Part shown: piece by piece, positions 13,475 through 57,656 of the stretch
Position numbering within the stretch: the first letter of the stretch is position 1
How the letters are laid out: each line of letters begins with the position of its first letter
Assembly (NCBI GenBank): GCA_016206155.1
Contig: JACQSC010000004.1
Location: 75,699-139,698 of the forward strand
Origin: Candidatus Uhrbacteria bacterium
Lineage (GTDB): Bacteria > Patescibacteriota > Patescibacteriia > JACQRZ01
Direction: 5' to 3'
DNA length: 64,000 nucleotides
Translations under genes and position numbers: made by a program
Notes under the pieces: generated by a model
Told to the model about the DNA's origin: nothing
Databases searched by the model: none
Seen by the model: only the letters and a program-made list of their open reading frames with translations

Positions 13475-13506
13475 ATAGGGTTTAGGGTTTAGTGTATAGG
13501 GAGTAG
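13475..13506. repeat. telomere-like TAGGGTTTAGGGTTTAG tract immediately upstream of the rpmF start
   Basis: AATAGGGTTTAGGGTTTAGTGTATAGGGAG; on the mRNA strand this reads CCCTAAACCCTAAACCCTATTCTTAT-ATG. Confidence 0.6.
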
Positions 13507-13595
13507 TCTAGCAAATTAGTGAATAAAGGCAAGCCCCGCCAGAAGTCTTATCGACCATTTACAGAGTTGATTGTTTATGCCACACTACTTTTAAC

Positions 13596-31376: not shown

Positions 31377-33047
31377 TTATGATTGCGCACCGTTACAGCG
31401 CAACCAGGCACCTGCTTGACGCCTTGTCTTTATTCTCCCCGATAGCTGTTCTTCGCGCAACAGTTCTCGCAGTTCGCCGACGCGCGGACCCGGTTTAATG
31501 GCGCATATTCGCATAATCGCATCCCCGTCAAGCAGTGGCGGAGGAAGCGCGTGCTTGCGCAGGGTAAGGTTGTGCTGTTTTTCAAACGCGTGGCGCCGCT
31601 TCTTAAAAGCATAATATCCTTGAATGCCGACCCTCCCGCTTTCCTGAATCGAGGCAGACGAATCGCAAAAAACAAGACGCTGAAGCAGAGCTCCGCGGCG
31701 AGGATCATCATAAAAATACTTTTCAATCGTCCGGCTCCGCAGTTTATCAACGGTCGTCGTGAGAACAAGGAGGTGATTGCGCACGAGCCATGCAAGATCA
31801 TCGGCTGTTCCGTCAAACTCCGCGGCAGATGCCAAACGCAAACGATCTGCAACATGCCGCGCAATCTCCGCGCCTGCGCGATCGTGGCCATGCGTGCGGA
31901 TCCTGTCCGTCCCGTGCGTTTCTGGCGTTTGGAGCGTGGAGGGCTTGCCCGCATCATGAAACAACACCGCGAATGTAAGGAGCGCTGAATTGTTTTTCTC
32001 GCCAAACTCATTGGCGAATTTCTTACCCGCCAATACTGAGAGGGCCAGCCGCGTGTGCGTCCACACATCGCCCTCGCTGTGCCACCGCTTCTCCTGCGGG
32101 CATCCCTTCATTGTCAGCAATTCGGGAATGAGCAATTTGATAATGCCAAGATCGTCATACATATCTAACGCGCGGACAGGATCGGCAACAAACGTCTTTA
32201 CTATTTCCCTTGCGATGATCTCATAGGCAACAACACGCATGGTATTGCGATCTATTTTTTTTGTCAGCCGTTTTTCCGGAGCCATTTCTTTGTTGAGAAA
32301 TTTCGCCTTCTTCCTGATTACCTCAAGCGTCTCCTGCTCAATTTGAAATCCCAGTTGGCACGCAAAGCGCACTGCCCGGAGTATGCGCGAATAATCCTCG
32401 GCAAAGCGCGCCTGTGGTTTTCCAACCGTACGAATAATTTTTTTCTTTATGTCGGCAACCCCGCCGAACGGATCGATAACTTCCCTCGTTTTCAGATTTA
32501 GCGCAAGGGCATTGATGGTAAAGTCGCGCCGCGAAAGATCTTCTTCAATTGGAAGGCGGTGATCGGTCTTGATTTGAAAATCGCGATAGTGGCCGGTGCC
32601 GGCATCGGTGTGCTCGGTACGCGGAAGCGCAATATCGAAAACGGGGTCTGGCTCTGGTGGGGTCTGGCTCAATTTCGCGAAGCGAATTTGTGCCTGACCC
32701 CGTTCTGTGCCAGACCCCATTTTTGACATTTTTGGCAGAAACTTGAGAATGCCGAACTTTTTGCCGACCAAGCGCACGGTTCCATGTTTTTTGAAAAATC
32801 GCAAAAGCGCAGTAATCGGCACATTGCGTACGACAAAATCATAATCCTTTGTTGGCCGCGAGAGCAGCATATCGCGTACCGCACCGCCAACGAGAAATAC
32901 CTCTGCCAAAGGAAATTCCCTGCAAAGCGCTCTTACGAATCCAAACTGTGGATTACGTAATAGGGGCATTGTTTTTTTCTTTTGTGAAAAGGTTTTTTTC
33001 ATGCCATTGATGCCTTGACAAAAAGTTGCGTGATTAGGTTCATTCAT
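31377..33047 (-). CDS. cca: tRNA nucleotidyltransferase (CCA-adding enzyme) / poly(A) polymerase family with HD domain
   Basis: GGAVRD...DxD polymerase-beta head, RRDFTINAL and an HD motif LFHDAGK. Carries an in-frame insertion of a palindromic element (32643-32718). Confidence 0.75.
   Translation of the reverse strand: MNEPNHATFCQGINGMKKTFSQKKKTMPLLRNPQFGFVRALCREFPLAEVFLVGGAVRDMLLSRPTKDYDFVVRNVPITALLRFFKKHGTVRLVGKKFGILKFLPKMSKMGSGTERGQAQIRFAKLSQTPPEPDPVFDIALPRTEHTDAGTGHYRDFQIKTDHRLPIEEDLSRRDFTINALALNLKTREVIDPFGGVADIKKKIIRTVGKPQARFAEDYSRILRAVRFACQLGFQIEQETLEVIRKKAKFLNKEMAPEKRLTKKIDRNTMRVVAYEIIAREIVKTFVADPVRALDMYDDLGIIKLLIPELLTMKGCPQEKRWHSEGDVWTHTRLALSVLAGKKFANEFGEKNNSALLTFAVLFHDAGKPSTLQTPETHGTDRIRTHGHDRAGAEIARHVADRLRLASAAEFDGTADDLAWLVRNHLLVLTTTVDKLRSRTIEKYFYDDPRRGALLQRLVFCDSSASIQESGRVGIQGYYAFKKRRHAFEKQHNLTLRKHALPPPLLDGDAIMRICAIKPGPRVGELRELLREEQLSGRIKTRRQAGAWLRCNGAQS
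32643..32718. repeat. GGGGTCTGGCTCA...TGTGCCTGACCCC palindromic element inserted in-frame in the cca coding sequence
   Basis: Two left arms, a core palindrome AATTTCGCGAAGCGAATT, a right arm and an inverted left arm. Encodes KMGSGTERGQAQIRFAKLSQTPPEPDP. Confidence 0.65.
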
Positions 33048-34398: not shown

Positions 34399-34440
34399 TT
34401 GCCGCGTTCCTGCCTACCGCAGGCAGGCACGGGAATGACA
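34399..34440. repeat. degenerate copy of the TGTCAT...GGGAATGACA hairpin family
   Basis: TTCCTGCCTACCGCAGGCAGGCACGGGAATGACA. Confidence 0.4.
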
Positions 34441-36022: not shown

Positions 36023-36029
36023 GTGGGAA

Positions 36030-36058
36030 GGGTATAGGGTTTATGGTATAGGGTTTAG
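36030..36058. repeat. TAGGGTTTA-type tract immediately upstream of the 36022 start codon
   Basis: GGGTATAGGGTTTATGGTATAGGGTTTAG. Confidence 0.55.
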
Positions 36059-36084
36059 TAAGGATGCGCAATACCAAAAAAACA

Positions 36085-41797: not shown

Positions 41798-43570
41798 ACC
41801 TTAGGACCCTTATAGTTAGGGCCGGCGTTCATCAGCGCTTCAGTTCAAAGCATTCCAGATAAATCCAGTCAACTTCTCCCTTTAACGTTCTGACACTGGC
41901 CAGGCATCAGCCCCTATACATAGCCTTTCGGCTTAGCAGAGACCTATGTTTTTGGTAAACAGTCACTAAATAAACGTTAGCTGCGCCCGGCCTAAAGGCC
42001 GGGGAGGCATATCCCGAAGTTACGCCTAGCTTTTTTGCCGAGTTCCTAAACAAGGGTTCTCCCGTACACCTGAGTATACTCAACCCGTCCACCTGTGTCG
42101 GTTTGCGGTACGAGTGCTCACCAGTTAACTCGTGGGGTGCAGGAACTAATCCAGTATCGTTTGAGCGATATTGTTCTGTGTCCATATTCAAGGCGCGAGG
42201 AGCGACACGATGTAAATGCATCGTTAGCGATCTCGCAACACAGAATATGGCACAGAACAAATCGCCCGAAGGGAGACTAAAAAATGGCCGATTTTTTTGT
42301 TGCTCCTCCTCGAAGTACTACTCAGTACTCCTTTGTCGTCGCGCCTCGAAATCGTCTCATTTTTTAGCCTCTCAAGACAATGCTGGATTAGTTCCTGCAC
42401 CCCTGGGCTTTTCTAGGCTTCTCCGTCTCCCGGCTTGCAGAATATCGCTATTCCGCTCGATCCCATACCTTACGATATGGTCTGCGCGTATAACCAAAAC
42501 ACGCCCGGAACGTGGAAAAGCGTCCCCCATCGAAACTGATGAGCAGTTCAGGAATATTAACCTGATATCCATCGGCTACCCCTCATTAATCAAGGACTCA
42601 CCTTAGGATCGACTAACCCTGGGTCGATTTGCGTTGCCCAGGAATCCTTGGACTTTCGGTGTTGAAGGTTTTCACTTCAATTTTTGCTACTTATGCCAAC
42701 ATTCGCACTTCTGTACGCTCCACCATTTTTCACAAAACAGCTTCATCGCCTACAGAACGTTCCTCTACCGCCCAGGCCTAAAGGCCTGGGCCCATATCTT
42801 CGGTACCACGTTTGAGCCCCGATATATTTTCGGCGCGCGGCAACTGGACCAGTGAGCTATTACGCTTTCTTTAAATGATGGCTGCCTCTAAGCCAACATC
42901 CTGGTTGTATAAGTCGCGACACCACCTTTTACACTTAACGTGGATTTAGGGACCTTAGATGATGATCTGGGCTGTTCCCCTTTAGACGGACGGACCTTAG
43001 CGCCCATCGTCTGACTCCCGCTGTATAGCATTTCCAGTATTCGGAGTTTGGTTGGGGGCGGCAGGATTTCTCCACCCGACCCCATTCAGTGCTCTACCCC
43101 TGGATGCCACAACGAGGCTAGTCCAAAAACTATTTCGAGGAAAACAAGCTATTACCGAGTTCGATTGGAATTTCTCCCCTAACCTCAGCTCATCCCCATG
43201 CGTTGCACGACATGTGGGTTCGGGCCTCCTCCGACCTTTCGGACGGACTCACCCTGGCCAAGGCTAGCTCACCCGGTTTCGTGTCTTGTGCATGCTGCTT
43301 CTTGAGGGTGTAGGGTTCAGGGGTCAGGGTTTAGATTGCGGTGACCGCAACCCTCTACCCTTTACCCTAAACCCTTTACCCTCAAATGCGCCCCATTCAG
43401 ACTCGGTTTCCCTTCGCTTCCTCCGCTTCATGCGGATTAAACTTGCAACATACAGCAAACTCGTTGGCTCATTCTTCAATAGGAACGCCGTCACCCCCGG
43501 ATTACTCCGAAAGCTCCGACTCCTTGTAAGCACACGGTTTCAGATACTATTTCATCGGCCTCCCGGCCTG

Positions 43571-44869: not shown

Positions 44870-47578
44870 ATGATTGCAGATATCTCCTTTCTTGAGCGCC
44901 GCATAGAAGTGAAACAAAAACTGGCGCAAAAAAAATTCCGAGGGCAAAAACGCACCCCGGTTTATTCTCTGCTTGCCTTAATCGTTATGATTACCGGCAC
45001 GCTGGGAAGTTATTTGACACTTTCTTATGCCGCAACATCAATACGCCGCAGCCCGCTTGTGTTTCAGGGAAGGATTACTGACGCGAACTATGTTCCGATT
45101 GCTGATTCAACAACGCGGAGAATGGTCTTTCGCATCTATAACGCTGCAACTGCGGGAAATTGCCAATGGTCAACAGGAAACGCTGCTGACACGGCAGAAG
45201 CAACAAACTGCGCCATTGATATCACGCTCGCCGGAGACAACGCCGCGGAAGACAATGCTTCGGTTGCGACGACAATCACACGTGGCGTGTTTTCAGTGCC
45301 GATTGGAGACACTGGCTATCATGCGAATATGCGCGCGCTTCGCCTTGACTTTAACAACGCGGCAAACGAAGTATATTATATTGAGATAAGCGTCAAAAAT
45401 TCGAGCGGGGAGTATGAAACCCTTTCCCCGCGCATACGCATCGGATCGAGCGCGTATGCGTACAATGCGGATGAACTGGACGGAATCACGTCAGCGTCAT
45501 TCGCACAATTGGTCGGACAGGCAGGAGGACAAATACTTATCGGCGGAACAGCGACAACTGACGATTTGACATTGAGAACCACATCTGGAGCGGGCGAAAG
45601 CGGCGCTGACATGATTTTTCAGGTTGGAAACAATGGCGCGACAGAGGCGATGAGGATACTAAATGGCGGGAACATAGGCATAGGCGATACGTCGCCTGAT
45701 TCACTTCTGAATATTCAGTCTAGCGCGGCCGAGAATAATGGCATCATCGTTTCCCAAACAAATGCCGGGGATTATGATCCGTTCATACAATTTGAGCTTA
45801 CGGACGGCACTGCGTCGTATACCATGGGCATTGATGACAGCGTTGCTGGCGACCCATTCAAAATTTCAACAACCGCACTCGGGTCTGGAGATCTTCTTAC
45901 AATTGATTCAAGAATAAACACTTCCGGAGTTAGCGCATTTTCGTTTACCACTCCATTTCATACAGCAGGCATTACAAGCGTTTCAACGGCAGAATATACA
46001 ACGCTTACTGTCACGCCGCCCGTTATTCTGCTCTCAGGACAAACACAAGTAACATCGCAAATGGATTCAATCGTATTCAGCCAGCCAACCGTTTCAGACG
46101 CGCAAGCAATCACTGTAGATGATGCGGCGCTTCTCACGCTCCAAGGAGCGCCACTGGGCCAAACAGGAGTTACGATCAGTGATTCATACGCTCTAAAAAT
46201 AAACACCGCGACTGCCGGGGGAACCACTCGAACATATGGTCTGTATGTGGATGCGATGACAGGAGGCGTGGGTACGCATTATGCGGCCGCGTTTGCAAGC
46301 GGCAATGTCGGAATCGGCACGGCAACGCCAGGGCAAAAATTATCCGTTGCTGGAACTTTTGGTATTTTAGAAGGTGGGGCGTCACCAACTTATTATACCA
46401 TCTTCCAGGGTGGAGATCAGGCCGCGAACTTAACCTATACGCTCCCTTCAGCCGATGGAACGAACGGACAAGTCCTCGCTACAAATGGCGGCGGCACATT
46501 AAGTTGGACCACATCATCAGCTGGTTCTTCTTGGTCGCTTTTGGGCAATGCGTTTTCCGGAACAGAAAAATTGGGTTCAACGAACGATTACTCCGTTGTA
46601 ATGATCAACAACAATACCGATAGATTCCGCTTCACTACCAAAGGACAAATCGAGATATTAAGTTCAGCGGAATCTGTATTGATTGGCGAGGAAGCCGGGA
46701 AAAATCAAGACAACTCGGCAGGTAGGTATAATGTTTTCGTTGGACGCCAGGCCGGTCTTTCCAACACCACCGGCTCTGAGAATGTAGCAAGCGGATATCA
46801 AGCCCTTTATTCAAACACAACAGGCACTTATAACACGGCAATCGGACCTTACGCCCTTTTGTTAACCACTACTGGAACTAGAAACACGGCAAGCGGATTC
46901 GAGGCCCTTCGTGGTAACACCACAGGCTATGATAACACAGCAAACGGGTATGTAGCGCTTCGTTCCAACACCACAGGCTATCATAATGTCGCAAGCGGAC
47001 GCGGAGCGCTTTATTTAAACACCACGGGTTATCAGAATGTAGCAAACGGATTTGAAGCGCTTTATTCAAACACCACAGGCACTTATAACACAGCAAACGG
47101 ATATCAGGCGCTTTATTCAAACACCACAGGCACTTATAACACAGCAAACGGGATTAGCGCCCTTAGTGGCAACACCACTGGCAGCAATAACATCGCGATT
47201 GGCGTTGGCGCAGGCGATAACATTACCTCTGGTTCAAATAATATAATAATTGGTTTTAGTGTTGATGCGCCGGTTGCCACAAACAGCAACCAACTTTCCA
47301 TTGGCAACCTTATCTTTGCCACGGGCGGCTTTGGCACAGGAACTACTATTGGAAGCGGCAATGTCGGTATTGGCACGGCAACACCGCAAAGCACCCTCCA
47401 GGTAGATGGGGGATATATTCAGTTTGATTTTGTTACAGTCGCGCCCAATGCCGCAGATTGTGATGACGCAGCTGAAGCGGGACGTGTCATTGTTTTTGCA
47501 AATGGCGCAGGCGCCGCGCAACTCTATGTCTGTGATTCTGATGATGGCGATGGCAGCCCAGGCTGGGTCACGAAGTAA
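44870..47578 (+). CDS. large cell-surface protein with N-terminal membrane anchor and tandem NTTGxxNTAxG beta-helix repeats (tail-fibre/adhesin-like) and a GNVGIGTATP motif
   Basis: 902 aa with repeated (A)L(Y/R)SNTTG(T)YNTA(N)G units and a C-terminal GIGTATPQSTLQVDG segment typical of tail-fibre/adhesin stalks. Confidence 0.65.
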   Translation: MIADISFLERRIEVKQKLAQKKFRGQKRTPVYSLLALIVMITGTLGSYLTLSYAATSIRRSPLVFQGRITDANYVPIADSTTRRMVFRIYNAATAGNCQWSTGNAADTAEATNCAIDITLAGDNAAEDNASVATTITRGVFSVPIGDTGYHANMRALRLDFNNAANEVYYIEISVKNSSGEYETLSPRIRIGSSAYAYNADELDGITSASFAQLVGQAGGQILIGGTATTDDLTLRTTSGAGESGADMIFQVGNNGATEAMRILNGGNIGIGDTSPDSLLNIQSSAAENNGIIVSQTNAGDYDPFIQFELTDGTASYTMGIDDSVAGDPFKISTTALGSGDLLTIDSRINTSGVSAFSFTTPFHTAGITSVSTAEYTTLTVTPPVILLSGQTQVTSQMDSIVFSQPTVSDAQAITVDDAALLTLQGAPLGQTGVTISDSYALKINTATAGGTTRTYGLYVDAMTGGVGTHYAAAFASGNVGIGTATPGQKLSVAGTFGILEGGASPTYYTIFQGGDQAANLTYTLPSADGTNGQVLATNGGGTLSWTTSSAGSSWSLLGNAFSGTEKLGSTNDYSVVMINNNTDRFRFTTKGQIEILSSAESVLIGEEAGKNQDNSAGRYNVFVGRQAGLSNTTGSENVASGYQALYSNTTGTYNTAIGPYALLLTTTGTRNTASGFEALRGNTTGYDNTANGYVALRSNTTGYHNVASGRGALYLNTTGYQNVANGFEALYSNTTGTYNTANGYQALYSNTTGTYNTANGISALSGNTTGSNNIAIGVGAGDNITSGSNNIIIGFSVDAPVATNSNQLSIGNLIFATGGFGTGTTIGSGNVGIGTATPQSTLQVDGGYIQFDFVTVAPNAADCDDAAEAGRVIVFANGAGAAQLYVCDSDDGDGSPGWVTK

Positions 47579-51041: not shown

Positions 51042-51055
51042 TAGGGTATAGGGTT
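51042..51055. repeat. TAGGGTATAGGGTT tract 11 nt upstream of the tRNA-Trp 5' end
   Basis: ATAGGGTATAGGGTTGAG between the folD stop and tRNA-Trp. Confidence 0.45.
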
Positions 51056-51059
51056 GAGA

Positions 51060-51890
51060 TTATTTCGTCAAATTTTTTGCCGCCCTCAATACATTCTCCA
51101 TCAATACGGCGACCGTAAGCGGCCCAACGCCGCCGGGGACTGGTGTGATAGCCCGTGCCTTCCTTGACACCGACGCAAAGTCAACGTCTCCAACAACTTT
51201 TTTCCCATTCTTAGTAATCCCAACGTCAACGACTACCGCACCTTTTTTAACCATTGTGCCGGCTAAATATCCCGCTCGTCCCACTGCCGTGATTACAACA
51301 TCTGCCTCACGCGAAAGCTGCATGAGCCGTGCCGCGCGGCTATGCACGAGCGTCACAACCGCACCCTGATTAAGGCAGTGCGCGCTAATCTGCCGAGCAA
51401 AAAACCCGTCGCCAATGACGACGACATCTGATGTCTCAAGCGACTGACCTGTTGAGCGAATAAGCCTCAAGACCGCTTCTGGTGTCGGAGGGGGAAATGG
51501 CAGCGGCTTATTCAAAAAAAGTTTTGCAAGGTTGTCGGGATGAAAACAATCAATATCCTTTTCCGGTGCGATGTGATGAGCGACCTCATCAAGAGCAATA
51601 TGCGGCGGAAGAGGCACCTGAAGAATAATGCCGTGAATGTTCTTGTCCTTGGAAAGCGCATCGAGCGCGGCAATAACTTTTTTTTGTGATGCGTTTTTTG
51701 GAAGCTGCACTTTTTTAAAATAAAAACCAAGCTCATTCGCCATCTGCCCTTTTCGTCCAACATACAGCACCGAAGCGGGATCCTCACCGACCAGGACCGC
51801 GGCAAAACCCGGCCGTGCTTTTATTTTTTTTGCTCGCCGTTTAATATCATATTTTAATGTGTCGGCAATTTTTTTTCCGTCGATGACCAT
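51060..51890 (-). CDS. folD: bifunctional methylenetetrahydrofolate dehydrogenase/cyclohydrolase
   Basis: 276 aa with the FolD pattern (GIILQVPLP, VGVGPLTVAVLMENV). Confidence 0.88.
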   Translation of the reverse strand: MVIDGKKIADTLKYDIKRRAKKIKARPGFAAVLVGEDPASVLYVGRKGQMANELGFYFKKVQLPKNASQKKVIAALDALSKDKNIHGIILQVPLPPHIALDEVAHHIAPEKDIDCFHPDNLAKLFLNKPLPFPPPTPEAVLRLIRSTGQSLETSDVVVIGDGFFARQISAHCLNQGAVVTLVHSRAARLMQLSREADVVITAVGRAGYLAGTMVKKGAVVVDVGITKNGKKVVGDVDFASVSRKARAITPVPGGVGPLTVAVLMENVLRAAKNLTK

Positions 51891-51966: not shown

Positions 51967-53034
51967 TCAAAAACGTCCGCCGCTTTGCATTTCTTTAATA
52001 TGCCGCTTAAGACTGCACGCATTGCAATGATTGAGCGTGCTAAGATAGGATTGAATCGCGCTGCGCACATACGGCTCCTTCACAACTCCGGCTTTTTGTC
52101 CTTCGACCATGTGGGCGATCTTTTTCAGCACTCTCTTCTTCGTTCGTACACGAAGCACAACGTGGCATGGAAAAAGAACATAGCCAAGAAAGTCGATTCC
52201 ATGAGAAAACTTTCTCACATGTACCTTGCTTGGGTGTAACTCGAGACGAAGACGATCATCTATAAACGTGTTGATGGATGATATGAATCCAACAAGCTGC
52301 TTTTTATCATGACTTACTACCACAAAATCATCGCAATAACGAACATAGTTTGGTGCCTTAAGACTATGCTTCATGAACACGTCAAGCTCATTGAGATAGA
52401 TGTTGGCAAACAATTGGCTTGTCACATTACCGAGTGGTATGCCTTTTCCTCTTTGTCCTGCAAAACTACCGATGATTGCTTGGAGCAAGGAAAGAGTTCG
52501 CTCGTCTTTAATATGCCGCTTCAAGAGCTTCAAAAGTATTGAATGATCAACCGAATCAAAAAACCTTCGTATATCACATTTCAAAACATAGGGTATCCGC
52601 GTATTATTTTTTCCTTCCTTTCTTAAAAATACTTGCAGTCGCCGTATCGCTCGATGCGCGCCCTTACCCACGCGGCAAGAATAGGAATCAAAGATAAACG
52701 ATCGGTCAAACATTGGATACAGCGTCCGAAAAACAGCGTGATGCACAACCCTATCGCGAACAGACGCTTTATGGATATGGCGCACCTTTGGATCAACAAC
52801 GAAAAATGACGTATACTGTCCATGACGATAAGCACCTCGAACAAGCTCTTGATGGAGCGAGAAAATAGTATCCTCCAGATGGAGATCGCGGACATGTATT
52901 TCGCCTCTACTCCATTTCCCTCGCACAAATTCACGCCACGCGATAAAAAGATTTTCAAGACTTACTATCTCATCAAATAACCTATGAGTATTACCCCCCC
53001 CCCCAACGATTTCGGAACTGTTCCGGTTATTCAT
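51967..53034 (-). CDS. diversity-generating retroelement reverse transcriptase
   Basis: RT motifs YVLKCDIRRFFDSVDH, IPLGNVTSQLFANIYLNELD (the DGR-type SQ motif, in place of the group II QG...SP) and YVRYCDDFVVV (YxDD). Size 355 aa is typical of DGR RTs. Confidence 0.85.
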   Translation of the reverse strand: MNNRNSSEIVGGGGNTHRLFDEIVSLENLFIAWREFVRGKWSRGEIHVRDLHLEDTIFSLHQELVRGAYRHGQYTSFFVVDPKVRHIHKASVRDRVVHHAVFRTLYPMFDRSFIFDSYSCRVGKGAHRAIRRLQVFLRKEGKNNTRIPYVLKCDIRRFFDSVDHSILLKLLKRHIKDERTLSLLQAIIGSFAGQRGKGIPLGNVTSQLFANIYLNELDVFMKHSLKAPNYVRYCDDFVVVSHDKKQLVGFISSINTFIDDRLRLELHPSKVHVRKFSHGIDFLGYVLFPCHVVLRVRTKKRVLKKIAHMVEGQKAGVVKEPYVRSAIQSYLSTLNHCNACSLKRHIKEMQSGGRF

Positions 53035-53349
53035 AAAGCATCGGAATGGTATAAAGCCATTTATACATTCTCCTCAAAAATATCGAAAAAAGATCGCTTT
53101 GGTATTTATCTGAAAATTGAACACGGGGCGCTCGAACTGATCGACCTTCTTCTTGTCGCCGCGTTAGAAGACAAAGATAAAAAATATCTTCCCCTCCGTA
53201 ACGCGCGCCTCAAAACAGAATCATTAAAGCGGCTTATAAGAATCTGTTATGAAATAGGAGTCGTAGACCTCAAACACTATATCAACTTTGAATACCCACT
53301 TCAAGAAATATCGAAAATGATCAATGGTTGGATAAAATATCTCCGATAG
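52984..53349 (+). CDS. DGR accessory variability determinant (Avd; four-helix-bundle family)
   Basis: 121 aa with the KDRFG...L..A......KM.NGWIK pattern of Avd/TIGR02436. Encoded divergently, with 51 nt of its start region overlapping the RT start region. Confidence 0.7.
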   Translation: MSITPPPNDFGTVPVIHKASEWYKAIYTFSSKISKKDRFGIYLKIEHGALELIDLLLVAALEDKDKKYLPLRNARLKTESLKRLIRICYEIGVVDLKHYINFEYPLQEISKMINGWIKYLR

Positions 53350-53380
53350 CAAAAGAGCTCCGCGCGGAGCTCTTTCATAT

Positions 53381-53512
53381 CAAGGAGATTGCCTGGCGAG
53401 CGCGCAGATTCTCGTTCGCATTACCGGGGTTGTTCCAGTTGACGTTGAGCTTGCCGTCACTGTTCGTGTTCACGTTCGGAACATTACCGTCGCTATTGCG
53501 CGACCCAGCACA
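53381..53512 (-). repeat. DGR template repeat (TR)
   Basis: 132 nt matching the VR except at 21 positions. On the minus strand every differing TR base is an adenine. In the VR frame it is rich in AAC/AAT codons. Confidence 0.85.
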
Positions 53513-53741
53513 TGATGCATGATTCCATCCGCTATCACCGGCTGTTCTTTTTCAAAAACACCTGTGTTCTCCAAACATCTGTCTGGATTTTTTTACAAAG
53601 CATCGCGAGTTTTGTGCTCGCAAACCTTCCGTAAAATCATGCACGCAGTTTCCTTGATAACCGTAGGGCAAATCGCTATCCTGGATTGGACCGATTGTAT
53701 AAGCCATAGTGTAATGGTATACAAGCAAGAATAAAAAGCAA

Positions 53742-53769
53742 GAGACCCGAGCGTAAAACGTCGGGTCTC
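53742..53769 (-). other. GC-rich hairpin 3' of the VR (DGR hairpin/cruciform candidate), followed by a second hairpin at about 53777-53808
   Basis: GAGACCCGACGTTTTACGCTCGGGTCTC, about 55 nt beyond the target stop. Confidence 0.5.
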
Positions 53770-53821
53770 GATAGAAGTTCTTGCGCTCGCCTCCACGAAC
53801 GCAAGAAAAAAGGGGAAAGGG

Positions 53822-54592
53822 TTACAAGGAAACTGCCTGGCGAGCGCGCAGATGCACGAGCGCATCACCGGGGCGGATCCAGTGGACGCGGAGCTTGCCG
53901 TCACTGCGCGTGTCCACGCTCGGAACATTACCGTCGCTAAGGCGCGACCCAGCACACAACGTAACGTTCACCACGTCGAGGCGCTTCCCGGTTTCCCGAA
54001 AAAACGCCAAGTTGTGGATCAGGCACTCGAGTAGAGTTTCGGTCGTGATGCCGCGTTCGGCAATTTGATCCGCCGACGTGTTCTTGAGCTCCTCGTCGGC
54101 TTCAGCCCCATCACGCACCCAGATCGCGTAGGACCCATTTGAGGTGTCCCGTTCGTTCTGAATGATGACCTCGTCAAGAGATGTCTCCGTGTACTTCCAC
54201 GACCCGAACGCGGTCTTGCACTGCTGGTACGCCCCTTCAATCGTGACACCACTGGCGATCACGAGGAGCCGCCATTTGCCCTGATCGGGCTGTGGCGGGA
54301 TATTCTTCTCAGCCAGATTCACTGCGAGTCCGAATTCCTTTTCGTAAAACTCGCCCCACGGATCAAGAAGAGTTGGACTCCTCAGAAACCGCGCCATCAT
54401 GGCACGGGTGATCCTTCCGGCATCGCTCTGAGCGATTAGCTCAGCGATTTGTCCGGTCGTGATCTTCGCCATTTTTTCATCTCCTTCACCAATCCGGTAA
54501 TAAGGAAAGACATCGCGCGCTAACGCAACATCCGCTTCCGTAAACCGAAAAGGCAAACACGGCCAGAATCCCTGCTCCAGCCTTGTAACCAA
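53822..54592 (-). CDS. DGR target protein; variable C-terminal approx. 40 aa encoded by the VR
   Basis: 256 aa. The C-terminus ...CAGSRLSDGNVPSVDTRSDGKLRVHWIRPGDALVHLRARQAVSL is encoded by the VR up to the stop codon. The N-terminus may begin at an internal Met. Confidence 0.7.
   Translation of the reverse strand: MVTRLEQGFWPCLPFRFTEADVALARDVFPYYRIGEGDEKMAKITTGQIAELIAQSDAGRITRAMMARFLRSPTLLDPWGEFYEKEFGLAVNLAEKNIPPQPDQGKWRLLVIASGVTIEGAYQQCKTAFGSWKYTETSLDEVIIQNERDTSNGSYAIWVRDGAEADEELKNTSADQIAERGITTETLLECLIHNLAFFRETGKRLDVVNVTLCAGSRLSDGNVPSVDTRSDGKLRVHWIRPGDALVHLRARQAVSL
53825..53956 (-). repeat. DGR variable repeat (VR), ends at the target stop codon
   Basis: See TR. Substitutions occur only at TR adenine positions, except in the last 10 nt (IMH-like region). 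Confidence 0.85.
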
Positions 54593-54615: not shown

Positions 54616-57399
54616 CTATTCAAAAGTCAAGGCATGCATATCGCCCCAGTTCGCGCCTACTTTCACATCCGCCACGAGTGGCGCAGCCAACGCAACAACA
54701 CTCTCCATCTCCTTCTTGATGAGGGACGCGAGCTCTTGTTCCATACCTTTTGGAATCTCAAACACCAACTCATCATGAACCTGTAAAATCATTCCTCCTT
54801 TTGTCATCCCGGCGGGAGGCCAGCTTGCCCGGCTCTGCCGGGGGATCCAGTTCGTAAAATGTTTCTCTATTTCAATCATCGCGAGCTTGATGATATCTGC
54901 GCCTGTCCCCTGAATAGGCATATTGATGGCGGCGCGCTCTGCGGCGGCACGAACCTGAAACATCCCAGAGGAAAGCTCTGGAATATACCTGCGCCGCCCA
55001 AACATCGTTTCGACATATCCGGCTTTTCTCGCCTCGACAAGCGTCCTATCCATATACTCCGCAATCCCGGGATACACGCTAAAGTACCGATCAATAAAAT
55101 CACGCGCCTCATCCTGCGAAATCCCCGTACTTCGAGCAAGGCCATGCGGCCCCATACCATAGATAATGCCAAAATTAACCTCCTTCGCCGCTCTTCGCAT
55201 CTGAGGGGTTACATCCTTGATATCAACGCCCTGCACCGCTGAGGCAGTCATGGCATGAATGTCTTTCCCTTCGCGAAACGCGGAAAGCATTGCTTCGTCT
55301 TTTGCAAATGATGCCACAATACGCAGTTCAAGCTGGGAATAGTCAGCGGCAAGCAATATATATCCTTCTTGTGCAACAATGCTTTTTCGAATTTCGCGAC
55401 CCATTTCCGTACGAATCGGAATGTTTTGAAAGTTCGGATCAGATGAAGATAACCTACCCGTCGCTGCAATCGTCTGATTAAATGACGTATGCACACGTCC
55501 CGTCGTCACATCAATCAACTTTGGTAGTGCGTCGACATACGTATTTGCGAGCTTGGCGCGCTCGCGGTATTCAAGAATTTCATCGATAATCGGGTGAAGC
55601 CCACGCATCTTCTCAAGCTCCGACGCCGCGGTTGATATGCCTGTCTTGCCCTTCTTTAATTTCGGTGCATTGATCGCAAGTGTTTCAAACAATACTTTCT
55701 TGAGTTGAATGGGGGAGTTGATGTTAAACTCCTCGCCGGCGAGCGCATGAATATTTTTTACCAATCCCGAGAGTTCTTTGTGGAGCTTGGCAGACAGCGT
55801 GTTCAAAAAATCAACATCGATCTTCACACCCCGCCGCTCCATGCGCGCCAAAATGGGAATAAGGGGAATTTCAAACTTCTCACACACAGAAAGAAGGTTC
55901 TCTGTTTTGAGTTTTTCCATCACACGACTGCGCAATCGCCATGTATAGTCAGCATCCTCGCACGCATATTCGGACAACTGCTCAAGTGGAACGTCGGCCA
56001 TGGAAATCTGCTGCTTCCCTTTTCCGATCAATAATTCAATCGAAATCTTTTGATGGCCAAACTCTTGAAAGCTCATGGCGTCCAAGCTGTATGCCCTCCC
56101 GCCGGGATTTTCGACATAGGCGCCCACCATGGTGTCCATCTCAATGCCGGATAGTTCAATGCCGACATTGTGTAACACGTGCAGGTCGTATTTAATGTTA
56201 TGCCCTGTTTTCTTAACGCCGAAATCATCAAGAATCGCTTTCAGTGCGCCTCTGTGAGTCTTGGAGGCGAGCTTCCAGGGAAGGAAAAAAGCAGTACCAT
56301 CCTCAAATGAGAAACTAACACCAACCAACTCCGCGCGCAGAGCGTTAAGGCTTGTTGTCTCTGTGTCAACGGCAAAGTGCCGCACGCCGGAAAGTGTCTT
56401 CAGGAATGCATCGATCTTCTCGGTGGTGTCCAGCAGCTGATAATGAGAAAATGGGGTCTGGCTCAATTTCCGCAAGGAATTTGTGCCTGACCCCATTTTC
56501 TCGAAGCCTTGCGCGAAGGCTGACTGGAGGCGGGGAATGAGTGTTCGAAATTCTAGCTCCTGAAAAAGCGGTATGAGCACGTCGCCGTGAGGCGCTTTCA
56601 GCGCCGAGGCCTCAATGTCAAAATCAATCGGTACATCATATCGAAGCTGAACCAATGCATAGCTCATTGCAAAATCCTCGGCATGAACTTTAAGAAGCGA
56701 ATGCACCTTTGCTTTGATTGTCGGATCCCCTTGCTGCACAGCATCTTCAAGAGCCTCGCGGGAAGGAAATTGCTTCACAAGCTCTATTGCGGTCTTCTCG
56801 CCAATGCCCTTCACGCCCGGAATATTGTCAGAAGGGTCTCCACGCAGCGCTTTATAGAGAGTAAGATCGCGGGGCATAAGCCCGTCGTACCGTTCGCGTA
56901 CCGCCGCTTCGTCAAATATCGTTGTTTCAACGATGCTCTTTTTTAACGTATACACTTTTGTGTGATCGTCAACGAGCTGGAGGGTGTCCATATCACCGGT
57001 AACGATAACCGTCTCTGTGTCCGGATGGTCATGCGCCATTCGCCGCGCGAGTGTCGCAATGATATCATCGGCCTCAAACCCATCTTTTTCAAATATGGGG
57101 ATACCGAATCCGTGAAGAATTTGCTTGATGCGATCAATTTGATCGTAAAGCTCTTGGGGCTGTTTTACGCGCGTTGCTTTGTATGCTTTGTATTGTTCGT
57201 GTCGAAACGTCGGACCCTTTTTGTCAAATGCAACAACGCAATATGCCGGTTCGAGCTCCTTGAGCGCCTTCATCAGAATCTGAGTAAAGCCGTATACGGC
57301 GTTAACAACCTCTCCCTTTTGTGTTGTCAGCGGCGGTAATGCGTGCCATGCGCGATGCAACAACGCATTGCCGTCGATGATCATGAATCGTTTGTTCAT
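54616..57399 (-). CDS. polA: DNA polymerase I
   Basis: 5' nuclease (FMIIDGNALLHRAWHA), 3'-5' exo and a family A polymerase with motif A. The start was set at Met23 of the track ORF because upstream codons overlap tRNA-Cys. Contains two in-frame palindromic-element insertions. Confidence 0.9.
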   Translation of the reverse strand: MNKRFMIIDGNALLHRAWHALPPLTTQKGEVVNAVYGFTQILMKALKELEPAYCVVAFDKKGPTFRHEQYKAYKATRVKQPQELYDQIDRIKQILHGFGIPIFEKDGFEADDIIATLARRMAHDHPDTETVIVTGDMDTLQLVDDHTKVYTLKKSIVETTIFDEAAVRERYDGLMPRDLTLYKALRGDPSDNIPGVKGIGEKTAIELVKQFPSREALEDAVQQGDPTIKAKVHSLLKVHAEDFAMSYALVQLRYDVPIDFDIEASALKAPHGDVLIPLFQELEFRTLIPRLQSAFAQGFEKMGSGTNSLRKLSQTPFSHYQLLDTTEKIDAFLKTLSGVRHFAVDTETTSLNALRAELVGVSFSFEDGTAFFLPWKLASKTHRGALKAILDDFGVKKTGHNIKYDLHVLHNVGIELSGIEMDTMVGAYVENPGGRAYSLDAMSFQEFGHQKISIELLIGKGKQQISMADVPLEQLSEYACEDADYTWRLRSRVMEKLKTENLLSVCEKFEIPLIPILARMERRGVKIDVDFLNTLSAKLHKELSGLVKNIHALAGEEFNINSPIQLKKVLFETLAINAPKLKKGKTGISTAASELEKMRGLHPIIDEILEYRERAKLANTYVDALPKLIDVTTGRVHTSFNQTIAATGRLSSSDPNFQNIPIRTEMGREIRKSIVAQEGYILLAADYSQLELRIVASFAKDEAMLSAFREGKDIHAMTASAVQGVDIKDVTPQMRRAAKEVNFGIIYGMGPHGLARSTGISQDEARDFIDRYFSVYPGIAEYMDRTLVEARKAGYVETMFGRRRYIPELSSGMFQVRAAAERAAINMPIQGTGADIIKLAMIEIEKHFTNWIPRQSRASWPPAGMTKGGMILQVHDELVFEIPKGMEQELASLIKKEMESVVALAAPLVADVKVGANWGDMHALTFE
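54802..54850. repeat. TGTCATCCCGGCG...CCGGGGGATCCAG element inserted in-frame near the polA C-terminus
   Basis: Encodes WIPRQSRASWPPAGMTK between conserved IIK.AM and MILQVHDELVFE segments. The same termini occur in the intergenic composite element at 24743-24886. Confidence 0.65.
56453..56494. repeat. GGGGTCTGGCTCA-N17-TGTGCCTGACCCC palindromic element inserted in-frame in polA
   Basis: Encodes KMGSGTNSLRKLSQTP in the linker between the 5' nuclease and 3'-5' exo regions. It is the same family as the cca insert and the 57525 array. Confidence 0.7.
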
Positions 57400-57403
57400 A
57401 AAT

Positions 57404-57479
57404 TGGAGGCCACGACCGGAATCGAACCGGTGCGATAGCTGTTTTGCAGACAGCCGTGTTACCACTTCACCACGTGGCC
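57404..57479 (-). tRNA. tRNA-Cys, anticodon GCA, discriminator U73, CCA encoded
   Basis: Acceptor GGCCACG/CGTGGCC, anticodon loop CUGCAAA, T arm ACCGGTTCGATTCCGGT, 3' UCCA. Confidence 0.8.
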
Positions 57480-57524: not shown

Positions 57525-57656
57525 TGGTCTGGCTCGCGTATGGGGTCTGGCTCAGTTTTTGTTACTGCGTATGGGGTCTGGCTCAGTTTTTGCTACTGCA
57601 AAATCTGTGCCTGACCCCGTTCCACCGTTCCCCGTTCCACATGCGTGCCTGACCCC
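57525..57656. repeat. intergenic array of GGTCTGGCTC / GCCTGACCCC element halves plus a CCGTTCC triplet
   Basis: Three left arms (two followed by AGTTTTTG(T/C)TACTGC), two right arms TGCCTGACCCC, and CCGTTCCACCGTTCCCCGTTCCAC. Confidence 0.65.

What the first reader, a model, noticed from the sequence alone, without database searches (positions are those of the whole stretch)
54802..54850. Second, unrelated palindromic element (family 1: TGTCATCCCGGCG...CCGGGATCCAG) also inserted in-frame in polA
A 49-nt GC-rich hairpin adds WIPRQSRASWPPAGMTK between two conserved polymerase-domain segments near the C-terminus. Its termini match the hairpin units of the intergenic composite element at 24743-24886 and a degenerate copy at 34399-34440. 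polA therefore hosts insertions from two distinct repeat families.
Basis: seen in the sequence. Interest (0 to 1): 0.7.

Follow-up and report, generated by a model that had tools for sequence, protein, structure and literature searches.

The report
Known hairpin repeat inside polA gene
A 49-base hairpin repeat sits in frame inside the DNA polymerase I gene of a Candidatus Uhrbacteria bacterium; it belongs to the widespread NTS/SRM repeat family described in 2025, and adds a floppy surface loop that the enzyme very probably tolerates.

Summary
Window 54802-54850 is a 73% G+C imperfect hairpin inside polA (54616-57399, minus strand). It encodes WIPRQSRASWPPAGMT just before catalytic motif C (QVHDE). 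Its ends match the 28-nt hairpins at 24757-24784 and 24826-24853.

The family is already described. These are NTS/SRM ("Ssn-related motif") hairpins, bound and cut as single-stranded DNA by small GIY-YIG nucleases (Chenal et al. 2025, PMC11893778).

The polA copy is a long-loop variant: a 28-nt unit plus 21 nt that duplicate the 5' arm CCCGGC. About a quarter of public copies with this stem are similarly long.

It is not a private insertion. Two other Uhrbacteria PolA proteins (67-68% identical) carry the short form at the same codon. The carriers are not a clade on the whole gene, but their last ~110 codons group together. This indicates a mosaic, recombined 3' block.

AlphaFold2 gives pLDDT below 50 only at the two palindrome-derived peptides.

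In-frame SRMs also occur in other CPR genes, including atpG, a methyltransferase and a glycosyltransferase-like protein.

No Ssn gene lies in the window, and the rest of the genome could not be searched.

Verdict: a new member of a known kind, of moderate interest.

The parts
54802..54850 (+). Long-loop NTS/SRM-type hairpin repeat. The motif-sense strand is +, i.e. antisense to polA. On the - strand it encodes W851-T867 of PolA.
   Evidence: The termini TGTCATCCCGGCG and GCCGGG(GG)ATCCAG match the copy at 24757-24784.
54802..54805 (+). Non-palindromic 5' flank TGTC. The GTC just upstream of the palindrome is the cleavage determinant in Neisseria SsnA assays.
   Evidence: Sequence; paper PMC11893778.
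54806..54813 (+). Outer stem, 5' arm ATCCCGGC.
54814..54836 (+). Expanded loop GGGAGGCCAGCTTGCCCGGCTCT. It holds a second copy of the arm CCCGGC (54828-54833), which can pair with GCCGGG instead of the first one. About 21 nt are extra compared with the 28-nt unit.
   Evidence: Sequence. Not repeated elsewhere in the window. Long-loop forms are common in the family.
54837..54846 (+). Outer stem, 3' arm GCCGGG-GG-AT (2-nt bulge).
54847..54850 (+). 3' flank CCAG. The first C, immediately after the palindrome, is the key binding determinant in SsnA assays.
   Evidence: Sequence; paper.
54616..57399 (-). polA (DNA polymerase I, 927 aa from MNKRF; identical to P0001, Candidatus Uhrbacteria). All domains and motifs A, B and C are intact.
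54616..54951 (-). Mosaic 3' block of polA (from about residue 817 to the stop) that carries the hairpin. It groups with the same block of P0004 and P0003 against the whole-gene phylogeny.
   Evidence: folD shows a hint of the same pattern.
24757..24784 (+). Canonical 28-nt SRM hairpin TGTCATCCCGGCGAAGGCCGGGATCCAG.
   Evidence: Matches the published SRM search motif. Covariance model score 50.2 bits.
24826..24853 (-). Canonical 28-nt SRM hairpin TGTCATTCCCGCGGAGGCGGGAATCCAG. It is the inverted partner of the copy above and differs from the Neisseria NTS consensus at 2 positions.
   Evidence: 42.5 bits.
24735..24891 (.). Intergenic composite: two inverted SRM hairpins, an A+T-rich spacer and 24-nt outer inverted repeats (24738-24761 / 24868-24891). 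Same architecture as Rfam WsnRNA46 of Wolbachia.
   Evidence: I25. RF02625, 45.6 bits, below the gathering score of 65.3.
34399..34440 (-). Doubtful degenerate relative: TGTCATTCCCG followed by a different hairpin, with no ATCCAG end.
   Evidence: Not detected.

Best explanation
**What it is.** The element is a copy of the NTS/SRM (Ssn-related motif) hairpin repeat family. These are short directional hairpins of the form (C/T)GTCAT-stem-loop-stem-ATCCAG, dispersed in many bacterial phyla. In Neisseria and Wolbachia they are bound and cut, as single-stranded DNA only, by small GIY-YIG nucleases (Ssn).

**Where it sits.** A 28-nt unit became fixed in frame in the variable surface loop of Pol I, between the last palm helix and the beta-strand that carries motif C. 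Five of the six reading frames of the unit are open. The loop tolerates length changes. The polymerase therefore simply carries an extra disordered peptide (WIP...GMT).

**How it changed in this genome.** The hairpin loop later grew by 21 nt, which keeps the frame. The added stretch includes a duplicate of the 5' arm CCCGGC. I infer that this arose by slippage or template switching on the hairpin.

**How it is inherited.** The hairpin-bearing allele is inherited as part of a mosaic 3' polA block, possibly extending into folD. That block is shared by homologous recombination among otherwise divergent Uhrbacteria lineages.

**Shown:** family identity by sequence, in-frame position, absence from most relatives, the mosaic block, and predicted disorder of the peptide.

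**Inferred:** the insertion mechanism (unknown for SRMs in general), neutrality for the enzyme, and any present-day action of an Ssn nuclease on this copy.
For: **Family identity**
- The published NTS consensus is CGTCATTCCCGCGMAVGCGGGAATCYRG, and a degenerate SRM motif is given.
- Window 24757-24784 matches the SRM motif, against 0.19 matches expected per shuffled window.
- Window 24826-24853 differs from the NTS consensus at 2 positions.
- The polA copy shares 13 + 12 terminal nt with the first of these.
- The GTC before the palindrome and the C after it, the positions that matter for SsnA cleavage and binding, are kept in all three polA alleles.

**Family breadth**
- The exact stem variant occurs in more than 120 genome stretches from many phyla, including six CPR lineages, and in 13 viral contigs.
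- Of 149 copies, 26% are at least 38 nt long and many of them have nested inner stems.
- The paper reports that loop identity is dispensable and that loop extensions are tolerated in vitro.
- Among the 120 genome loci, 5 encode canonical Ssn-like GIY-YIG proteins, plus an atypical one at a tRNA in L092. L073 has the SRM-ssn-SRM arrangement. None of the loci gives a RAYT or IS200-like hit.

**Insertion in polA**
- Searches show the extra length.
- Orthologous short forms are at L001 12559-12586 and L003 2963-2990.

**Mosaic block**
- Whole-gene tree: P1+P2, P3+P5 and P4+(P7-P10) each have 100% bootstrap.
- Last 93 ungapped columns: P1+P4 91.5%, P1+P3+P4 81.5%.
- Maximum chi-square breakpoint about 33 codons upstream of the hairpin: P4 resembles its sister P8 at 168/200 informative sites to the left and at 2/24 to the right (p <= 0.0005).

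**Tolerance by the protein**
- AlphaFold2 mean pLDDT is 88.7. The only segments below 50 are residues 299-314 (the other palindrome) and 853-866 (this one).
- The sister lineage P0002 carries a different 79-nt palindrome in the same loop.

**Recurrence in other genes**
- In-frame SRMs occur in atpG (L134), an O-methyltransferase (L049) and a glycosyltransferase-like/NPCBM protein, which has two copies (L079).
Against: - No Ssn/GIY-YIG gene was found in the 64-kb window or in about 50 kb of related Uhrbacteria loci. The rest of the 288-kb contig and genome could not be read. A cognate nuclease in this organism is therefore unproven.
- The polA copy fails the published SRM regular expression, which allows a loop of at most 5 nt. 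It is also missed by a 28-nt covariance model. Its folding energy is no better than that of shuffles.
- There is no clean empty site, because the loop varies from 22 to 34 aa among relatives. The net gain of the short form is about 6 aa, not 9.
- Synonymous sites are saturated in all comparisons. The age and direction of the recombination therefore cannot be resolved.
- The 21-nt expansion rests on a single assembly.
Confidence: 0.8

Rival explanations
1. Three independent, site-specific insertions. The hairpin entered the same codon position of polA separately in the P0001, P0003 and P0004 lineages, because the element or its enzyme prefers that target.
For: On the whole-gene tree the carriers are not a clade, and each has a closer relative without the hairpin. 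The hairpin arm codons (ATC, GGG ATG ACA) are identical in all three although synonymous sites are saturated elsewhere. This would fit recent arrivals.
Against: The 93 columns flanking the insert, with the insert itself excluded, group the three carriers (81.5-91.5% bootstrap). The maximum chi-square test places a sharp breakpoint 33 codons upstream. The flanks therefore share ancestry, not just the hairpin. No target-site duplication or conserved target motif is visible.
Confidence: 0.12
2. A REP/RAYT-type or MITE-type transposable element, mobilised by an IS200/IS605-like Y1 transposase or a DDE transposase, rather than an Ssn-linked hairpin.
For: The inverted doublet at 24757-24853 resembles a REPIN or BIME. 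In-frame MITE insertions are known.
Against: There is no GTAG-type REP head, no terminal inverted repeats and no target-site duplication around the polA copy. The sequence matches NTS/SRM nearly base for base.
Confidence: 0.05
3. The 49-nt form, or the whole insert, is an assembly artefact caused by a dispersed repeat in a metagenome-assembled genome.
For: The 21-nt expansion is seen in one assembly only. A metagenome scan for further polA alleles with the hairpin found none.
Against: The reading frame and both conserved flanks are continuous. The short form is present at the same site in three other assemblies: NCBI GCA_016209345.1 and Logan SRR12113401, which carry the same P0004 allele, and SRR22387935, which carries P0003. 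A 21-nt gain that keeps the frame is not what a collapse or chimera usually gives.
Confidence: 0.05
4. A native, lineage-specific Pol I loop under protein-level selection that only resembles the repeat.
For: The peptide is kept in three lineages.
Against: There is a 25-nt terminal match to dispersed intergenic copies in the same window and to hundreds of copies in other phyla. The peptide is predicted to be disordered. It is absent from 114 of 117 CPR PolA proteins.
Confidence: 0.02

Closest known systems
NTS / SRM (Ssn-related motif) hairpin repeats with GIY-YIG Ssn nucleases (Chenal et al. 2025, Nat Commun 16:2388, PMC11893778); includes Neisseria dRS3
   Same: Near-identical sequence plan: (C/T)GTCAT, an 8-bp G+C-rich stem, a 4-nt loop, then ATCCAG. 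The flanks are directional and non-palindromic. Copies are dispersed and often form inverted doublets. Distribution across phyla is wide, and Ssn-like genes lie next to copies in some fetched loci.
   Different: This copy is in Candidatus Uhrbacteria, a CPR lineage; neither 'Patescibacteria' nor 'Candidatus' occurs in the paper's main text. It lies inside an essential gene, whereas only 2% of NTS copies are intragenic in N. meningitidis. It has a 23-nt loop, outside the published search motif. No ssn gene was seen in the 64 kb available.
Rickettsia palindromic elements (RPE; Ogata et al. 2000; reviewed in PMC10969869)
   Same: Palindromic repeats inserted in frame into unrelated housekeeping genes. 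They add peptides that are compatible with the fold.
   Different: RPEs are about 100-150 bp, belong to other sequence families and are described for Rickettsia. This element is 28-49 nt. The Ssn paper lists Rickettsia among SRM-rich genomes, but I did not test whether any RPE family is an SRM.
REP / REPIN / BIME elements with RAYT transposases
   Same: Short dispersed hairpins, inverted doublets, and recognition as single-stranded DNA. The Ssn authors draw this analogy themselves.
   Different: Different head sequence (no GTAG) and a different associated enzyme class. No RAYT was detected.
Rfam RF02625 WsnRNA46 (Wolbachia sRNA 46)
   Same: The composite at 24735-24868 aligns over the full 151-position model: GUCAU...GGGAUCCAG, an A+U-rich spacer, then CUGGAUUCC...AUGAC.
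   Different: The score is 45.6 bits, below the gathering score of 65.3. The polA copy gives no Rfam match. There is no evidence here that it is expressed as an sRNA.

Membership tests
NTS/SRM hairpin repeats (Ssn-related motif) | Sequence fits the NTS consensus or the degenerate SRM motif HGTCWYN(0-2)YYVSBRHN(0-5)WNVSBRGN(0-2)RNCYNB. | tested here: inconclusive
   24757-24784 fits the motif. 24826-24853 differs from the NTS consensus at 2 positions. The polA copy has both termini (13 + 12 nt), but its 23-nt loop exceeds N(0-5), so the motif and a 28-nt covariance model miss it. Long-loop copies with identical termini make up 26% of 149 public copies.
NTS/SRM hairpin repeats (Ssn-related motif) | Directional flanks: GTC just upstream of the palindrome and C just after it. 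| tested here: met
   TGTC-ATCCCGGC...GCCGGGGGAT-CCAG. The same holds in the L001 and L003 alleles. These determinants are as reported.
NTS/SRM hairpin repeats (Ssn-related motif) | Hairpin-forming semi-palindrome with compensatory variation among copies. | tested here: met
   The polA copy has an 8-bp stem with a 2-nt bulge. Across 51 distinct 28-nt copies, 98% of cells are paired and 3 pairs change on both sides (43 cells). No shuffle out of 500 reaches the observed covariation score. The copies were pre-selected by motif and by pairing, so this leans towards the structure.
NTS/SRM hairpin repeats (Ssn-related motif) | Many copies per genome, above shuffled expectation. | tested here: inconclusive
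   There are three good copies and one doubtful copy in 64 kb. One motif match is seen against 0.19 expected per shuffled window. The whole genome was not available.
NTS/SRM hairpin repeats (Ssn-related motif) | A single-domain GIY-YIG (cd10448) ssn gene in the same genome, often flanked by the motif. | not testable with these tools
   None was found in the window or in the Uhrbacteria loci L001-L004 and L138-L140. It is present in 5-6 of 120 SRM-bearing loci of other taxa. The remaining ~224 kb of the contig and the other contigs could not be fetched.
NTS/SRM hairpin repeats (Ssn-related motif) | Strand-specific binding and cleavage as ssDNA by Ssn. | not testable with these tools
   This needs biochemistry.
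Rickettsia palindromic elements (RPE) | Palindromic element of about 100-150 bp, from one of the RPE sequence families, in Rickettsia. | tested here: not met
   The element is 28-49 nt, the host is a CPR bacterium, and the consensus is different. It behaves like an RPE (in frame, tolerated) but is not a member.
REP/RAYT | REP hairpin with a conserved GT(A/G)G head and a RAYT (Y1 transposase) gene. | tested here: not met
   The head is TGTCAT.
MITE | Terminal inverted repeats plus a target-site duplication. | tested here: not met
   No direct repeat flanks the polA copy in any of the three alleles.
Rfam RF02625 WsnRNA46 | Score at or above the gathering threshold of 65.3 bits. | tested here: not met
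   The composite at 24735-24868 scores 45.6 bits. The polA region gives no match.

The most novel reading that the evidence does not exclude
In CPR bacteria, SRM hairpins may be kept inside essential genes by selection on the DNA itself. They would serve as recognition sites for an Ssn-type ssDNA nuclease that shapes where incoming DNA recombines. On this reading the polA 3' end (with folD) behaves as a recombination cassette whose boundary lies near the hairpin. More broadly, SRM hairpins would be a general source of new surface loops in CPR proteins such as PolA, AtpG, methyltransferases and glycosyltransferases.

The evidence is suggestive only. The hairpin arms are identical in three alleles whose synonymous sites are otherwise saturated. 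A recombination breakpoint lies about 100 nt from the hairpin.
Probability: 0.12. Interest if true: 0.6.

Novelty: new member of a known kind. Interest (0 to 1): 0.35.

Why it matters
The element links a curiosity seen in raw sequence to an experimentally characterised system, the NTS/SRM hairpins and Ssn single-strand nucleases. It extends that family to Candidatus Uhrbacteria, a CPR lineage; neither 'Patescibacteria' nor 'Candidatus' occurs in the original paper's main text.

It also shows that in CPR genomes these hairpins are repeatedly tolerated in frame inside real genes, some of them housekeeping genes. In Neisseria only 2% of copies are intragenic.

The mosaic polA 3' block shows homologous exchange between divergent Uhrbacteria.

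None of this changes the understanding of Pol I. In-frame palindromic insertions have been known from Rickettsia since 2000.

Tried and rejected
- **GIY-YIG search in the window.** A regular expression, tblastn and an HMM built from five Ssn-like ORFs of fetched loci found nothing in the window.
- **GIY-YIG ORF in Doudnabacteria locus L092.** It lies among duplicated tRNA pieces and is not flanked by SRMs. I did not use it as a CPR Ssn.
- **Metagenome scan for more hairpin-bearing polA alleles.** It gave two hits, both intergenic SRM doublets and not polA.
- **Fetching the source contig through P0001.** The protein is not on record.
- **Counting intragenic SRMs in high-G+C loci.** I abandoned this because long spurious ORFs make it unreliable. 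Only loci with at most 55% G+C were used, and the best cases were checked against Pfam.
- **Covariance-model search of the window.** It added only chance-level hits, for example 27474-27499 inside a coding region with no real stem.
- **Synonymous-site dating of the recombination.** Codon identity is about 50% in all pairs, i.e. saturated.
- **Inner 16-mer of the expanded loop.** It has no other copy in the window.
- **Supplementary tables of the Ssn paper.** They are not held.
- **Literature search for palindromic in-frame insertions in CPR.** Nothing relevant was found.
Full report
**1. The observation**

Window 54802-54850 (+) reads TGTCATCCCGGCGGGAGGCCAGCTTGCCCGGCTCTGCCGGGGGATCCAG: 49 nt, 73% G+C.

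It lies inside the only long ORF of the region, polA. The ORF listing gives 54616-57465 on the minus strand. The database protein P0001, which is 100% identical, starts at MNKRF, so the gene is 54616-57399 and 927 aa long. P0001 is named DNA polymerase I of Candidatus Uhrbacteria, a member of the Candidate Phyla Radiation (CPR), and comes from a 288-kb contig.

On the coding strand the element is in frame. It encodes W851-IPRQSRASWPPAGM-T867, directly before GGMILQVHDE, which is catalytic motif C.

The match to other copies is beyond chance:
- The first 13 nt are identical to 24757-24769. An exact 13-mer is expected 0.002 times in the window.
- The last 14 nt, GCCGGGGGATCCAG, equal GCCGGGATCCAG of 24773-24784 plus two G.
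- A second short unit, TGTCATTCCCGCGGAGGCGGGAATCCAG, lies inverted at 24826-24853.

The outer stem pairs ATCCCGGC (54806-13) with GCCGGG-GG-AT (54837-46). The folding energy of the polA copy is no better than that of G+C-matched shuffles (z -0.2 to -0.8). The short copies do fold better than shuffles (z -4.1 and -2.9). The case for the polA copy therefore rests on the family match.

The proposed degenerate copy at 34399-34440 shares only TGTCATTCCCG and is doubtful.

**2. It is an insertion relative to other Pol I, but not a private one**

Among 117 CPR PolA proteins the segment between QGTxAD and QVHDE is 24 aa in 59 and ranges from 22 to 34 aa in all but two. It is 37 aa here. It is also 13 aa longer than in Klenow fragment, where it is the loop AVDAWLQAEQPRVRM before D882.

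Two relatives carry a short form at exactly the same codon:
- P0004 (67% identical): WIPTSAGMT, DNA CTGGATCCCGACCTCCGCCGGGATGACA, L001 12559-12586.
- P0003 (68% identical): WIPAFVGMT, DNA CTGGATCCCGGCTTTCGTCGGGATGACA, L003 2963-2990.

The window copy is therefore that 28-nt unit plus 21 nt in the hairpin loop. The extra stretch contains a second CCCGGC (54828-33), which can pair with GCCGGG instead of the first one. This suggests an arm duplication by slippage on the hairpin; that step is inference.

The closest relative, P0002 (74-76% identical), has a different element in the same loop. It is a 79-nt palindrome with 28-nt perfect arms (L004 4996-5074). Its ends, GAGAAAAGGGGTC...GACCCCTTTTCTC, resemble those of the other palindrome family in the window's polA at 56445-56502.

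**3. What the family is**

A text search for the Neisseria dRS3 motif led to Chenal et al. 2025 (PMC11893778). That paper defines:
- the 28-nt NTS, CGTCATTCCCGCGMAVGCGGGAATCYRG;
- a degenerate Ssn-related motif (SRM).

It shows that small single-domain GIY-YIG proteins (SsnA, cd10448) bind these hairpins and cut just upstream of them. They act on single-stranded DNA only and on one strand only. The paper also reports that:
- the three bases upstream of the palindrome matter for cleavage, and the C just after it matters for binding;
- loop identity is dispensable and loop extensions are tolerated;
- ssn genes are often flanked by the motif;
- NTS copies are rarely intragenic (2% in N. meningitidis).

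Tests on the window and on public collections:
- Window 24757-24784 fits the SRM motif, against 0.19 matches expected per shuffled window.
- Window 24826-24853 differs from the NTS consensus at two positions.
- The polA copy keeps TGTC before and C after the palindrome, as do the L001 and L003 alleles.
- The exact stem variant occurs in 13 viral contigs.
These span Proteobacteria, Thermodesulfobacteriota, Dehalococcoidia, Nitrospirae, Omnitrophota, Cloacimonadota and six CPR lineages.
- Of 149 copies, 73% are 28-31 nt and 26% are at least 38 nt, many of these with a nested inner stem. The 49-nt form is thus an ordinary long-loop variant, although the published motif and a 28-nt covariance model miss it.
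- Across 51 distinct 28-nt copies the stem is 98% paired, with compensatory changes at three pairs. These copies were pre-selected, so the count leans towards the structure.
- Five of the 120 genome loci encode canonical Ssn-like GIY-YIG proteins, and L092 holds an atypical GIY-YIG ORF at a tRNA. L073 shows the SRM-ssn-SRM arrangement.
- None of the loci shows a RAYT or IS200-type transposase.
- The composite at 24735-24868 aligns end to end with Rfam WsnRNA46 of Wolbachia, below threshold (45.6 against 65.3 bits). This shows the same inverted-doublet architecture.
- The polA region matches no Rfam family.

**4. How the allele is inherited**

On 883 ungapped columns of PolA the three carriers are not a clade. 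P1+P2, P3+P5 and P4+(P7-P10) each have 100% bootstrap, so every carrier has a closer relative without the hairpin.

On the last 93 ungapped columns, from AAAERAAIN to the end and with the insert excluded, the carriers group together: P1+P4 91.5% and P1+P3+P4 81.5%.

A maximum chi-square test places a breakpoint about 33 codons upstream of the hairpin:
- P4 resembles its sister P8 at 168/200 informative sites to the left and at 2/24 to the right (p <= 0.0005).
- The same breakpoint appears for P1 against P2 and P4.
- The signal is weaker for P3.

FolD, which follows polA directly in the six fetched relatives, is also most similar between the window and L001 (0.83, against 0.75 for L001 and its polA sister). 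The block may therefore extend downstream.

The simplest reading is one insertion followed by homologous exchange of a hairpin-bearing 3' block among Uhrbacteria.

Synonymous sites are saturated in every comparison, at about 50% identical codons, so timing and direction are open. Within that background the arm codons ATC and GGG-ATG-ACA are identical in all three alleles, while the neighbouring Gly and Lys/Thr codons differ. This is suggestive of constraint or homogenisation at the DNA level. It rests on very few sites (roughly p = 0.01, not independent).

**5. Effect on the protein**

An AlphaFold2 model built with 56 aligned homologues has mean pLDDT 88.7. Only two segments fall below 50:
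- residues 299-314, the peptide from the other palindrome, in the linker between the nuclease domains;
- residues 853-866, this element.

The motifs around the catalytic aspartates are intact. The loop is naturally variable and has accepted a third, different palindrome in the sister lineage. I infer that the insert is a tolerated, disordered surface loop. This was not tested.

**6. How general it is**

Among 54 copies in loci with at most 55% G+C, several lie well inside real genes:
- ATP synthase gamma of a Doudnabacteria genome (L134, PF00231 spanning the insert);
- an O-methyltransferase of an Andersenbacteria genome (L049, Pfam match split in two);
- a glycosyltransferase-like/NPCBM membrane protein of a Gottesmanbacteria genome, with two copies (L079);
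- a 2011-aa protein of a Nitrospirae genome (L075).

Five of the six reading frames of the 28-nt unit are open; this follows directly from the sequence. The polA case is thus one instance of a recurrent pattern. It works like the Rickettsia palindromic elements, but with a much shorter, unrelated repeat.

I found no paper describing this for CPR in the held library.

**7. What remains open**

- No ssn gene lies in the window or in the related Uhrbacteria loci, and the rest of the genome was out of reach. Whether the hairpin is still a nuclease target here is unknown.
- How SRMs spread is unknown even in the original paper.
- The 21-nt expansion rests on one assembly.

**Verdict**

The element belongs to a known family, and the phenomenon has a known precedent. 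It is a new member of a known kind. Its moderate interest comes from the CPR host, the location inside an essential gene, and the mosaic allele.

Noticed in passing
window 51967-54592: A diversity-generating retroelement lies between polA and folD. It consists of a reverse transcriptase (51967-53034, -; PF00078), a bAvd-like accessory ORF (52984-53349, +; PF22296, 37.2 bits, just below the 40-bit cut-off), a template repeat (~53381-53512) and a variable repeat (~53825-53956) at the 3' end of the target ORF 53822-54592. Within the repeat, every template/variable mismatch falls on a template adenine. The cassette is absent from six related loci, where folD follows polA directly.
   Followed up: partly
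window 56445-56502; also 32658-32676, 57536-57597: This is the other palindrome family, GAGAAAATGGGGTCTGGCTCAATTTCC / GGAATTTGTGCCTGACCCCATTTTCTC. It is in frame in the polA interdomain linker (residues ~299-314, pLDDT below 50). The stretch is absent or much shorter in relatives. Related units stand in tandem just upstream of polA.
   Followed up: partly
L004 4996-5074: The closest PolA relative (P0002) carries a 79-nt palindrome with 28-nt perfect arms in the same loop as the SRM. It encodes GEKGSSPFFARGEKSVLQKRGMTPFLQ. Its termini resemble those of the window's other palindrome family, so the loop has been occupied by two different repeat families in sister lineages.
   Followed up: partly
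L079 2985-3014 and 3618-3647; L134 1793-1831; L049 7683-7712; L075 2193-2222; L078 1-3039: Other in-frame SRM hairpins lie inside real genes: two in a glycosyltransferase-like/NPCBM protein (Gottesmanbacteria), and one each in ATP synthase gamma (Doudnabacteria), an O-methyltransferase (Andersenbacteria) and a 2011-aa protein (Nitrospirae). An Omnitrophota 1013-aa ORF with about six SRM-like peptides has no Pfam match.
   Followed up: partly
window 24735-24868: The intergenic SRM doublet gives a full-length but sub-threshold match to Rfam WsnRNA46 of Wolbachia, on both strands (45.6 and 40.5 bits; gathering score 65.3). That 'sRNA' family therefore looks like the same inverted-doublet repeat.
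   Followed up: partly
window 13476-13507, 22743-22788, 36028-36059, 43304-43335, 51042-51073: Short dispersed runs of TAGGGTT-like heptamers (TAGGGTTTAGGGTTTAG...) occur at several sites (family D2).
   Followed up: no
window 46742-47243: A tandem array of at least seven 51-nt units at 60-74% identity, probably a repeat-containing coding region (family D1).
   Followed up: no
window 27758-29807: 187-nt inverted repeats (27787-27973 / 29573-29759, 83% complementary) and 49-nt terminator-like palindromes flank a 1.6-kb stretch. The surrounding 2-kb bin has the lowest G+C of the window, 0.376.
   Followed up: no
L092 6700-7290: In a Doudnabacteria locus an 87-aa GIY-YIG ORF (PF01541) sits between duplicated tRNA fragments. 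It looks like a homing-type insertion at a tRNA gene rather than an SRM-flanked ssn gene.
   Followed up: partly
L001 856-1078: The related Uhrbacteria contig has a cluster of three SRM hairpins within 220 nt. One is a 52-nt long-loop form with a nested GTCCCCGA...TCGGGGAC stem. Another copy lies at 16431-16459.
   Followed up: partly
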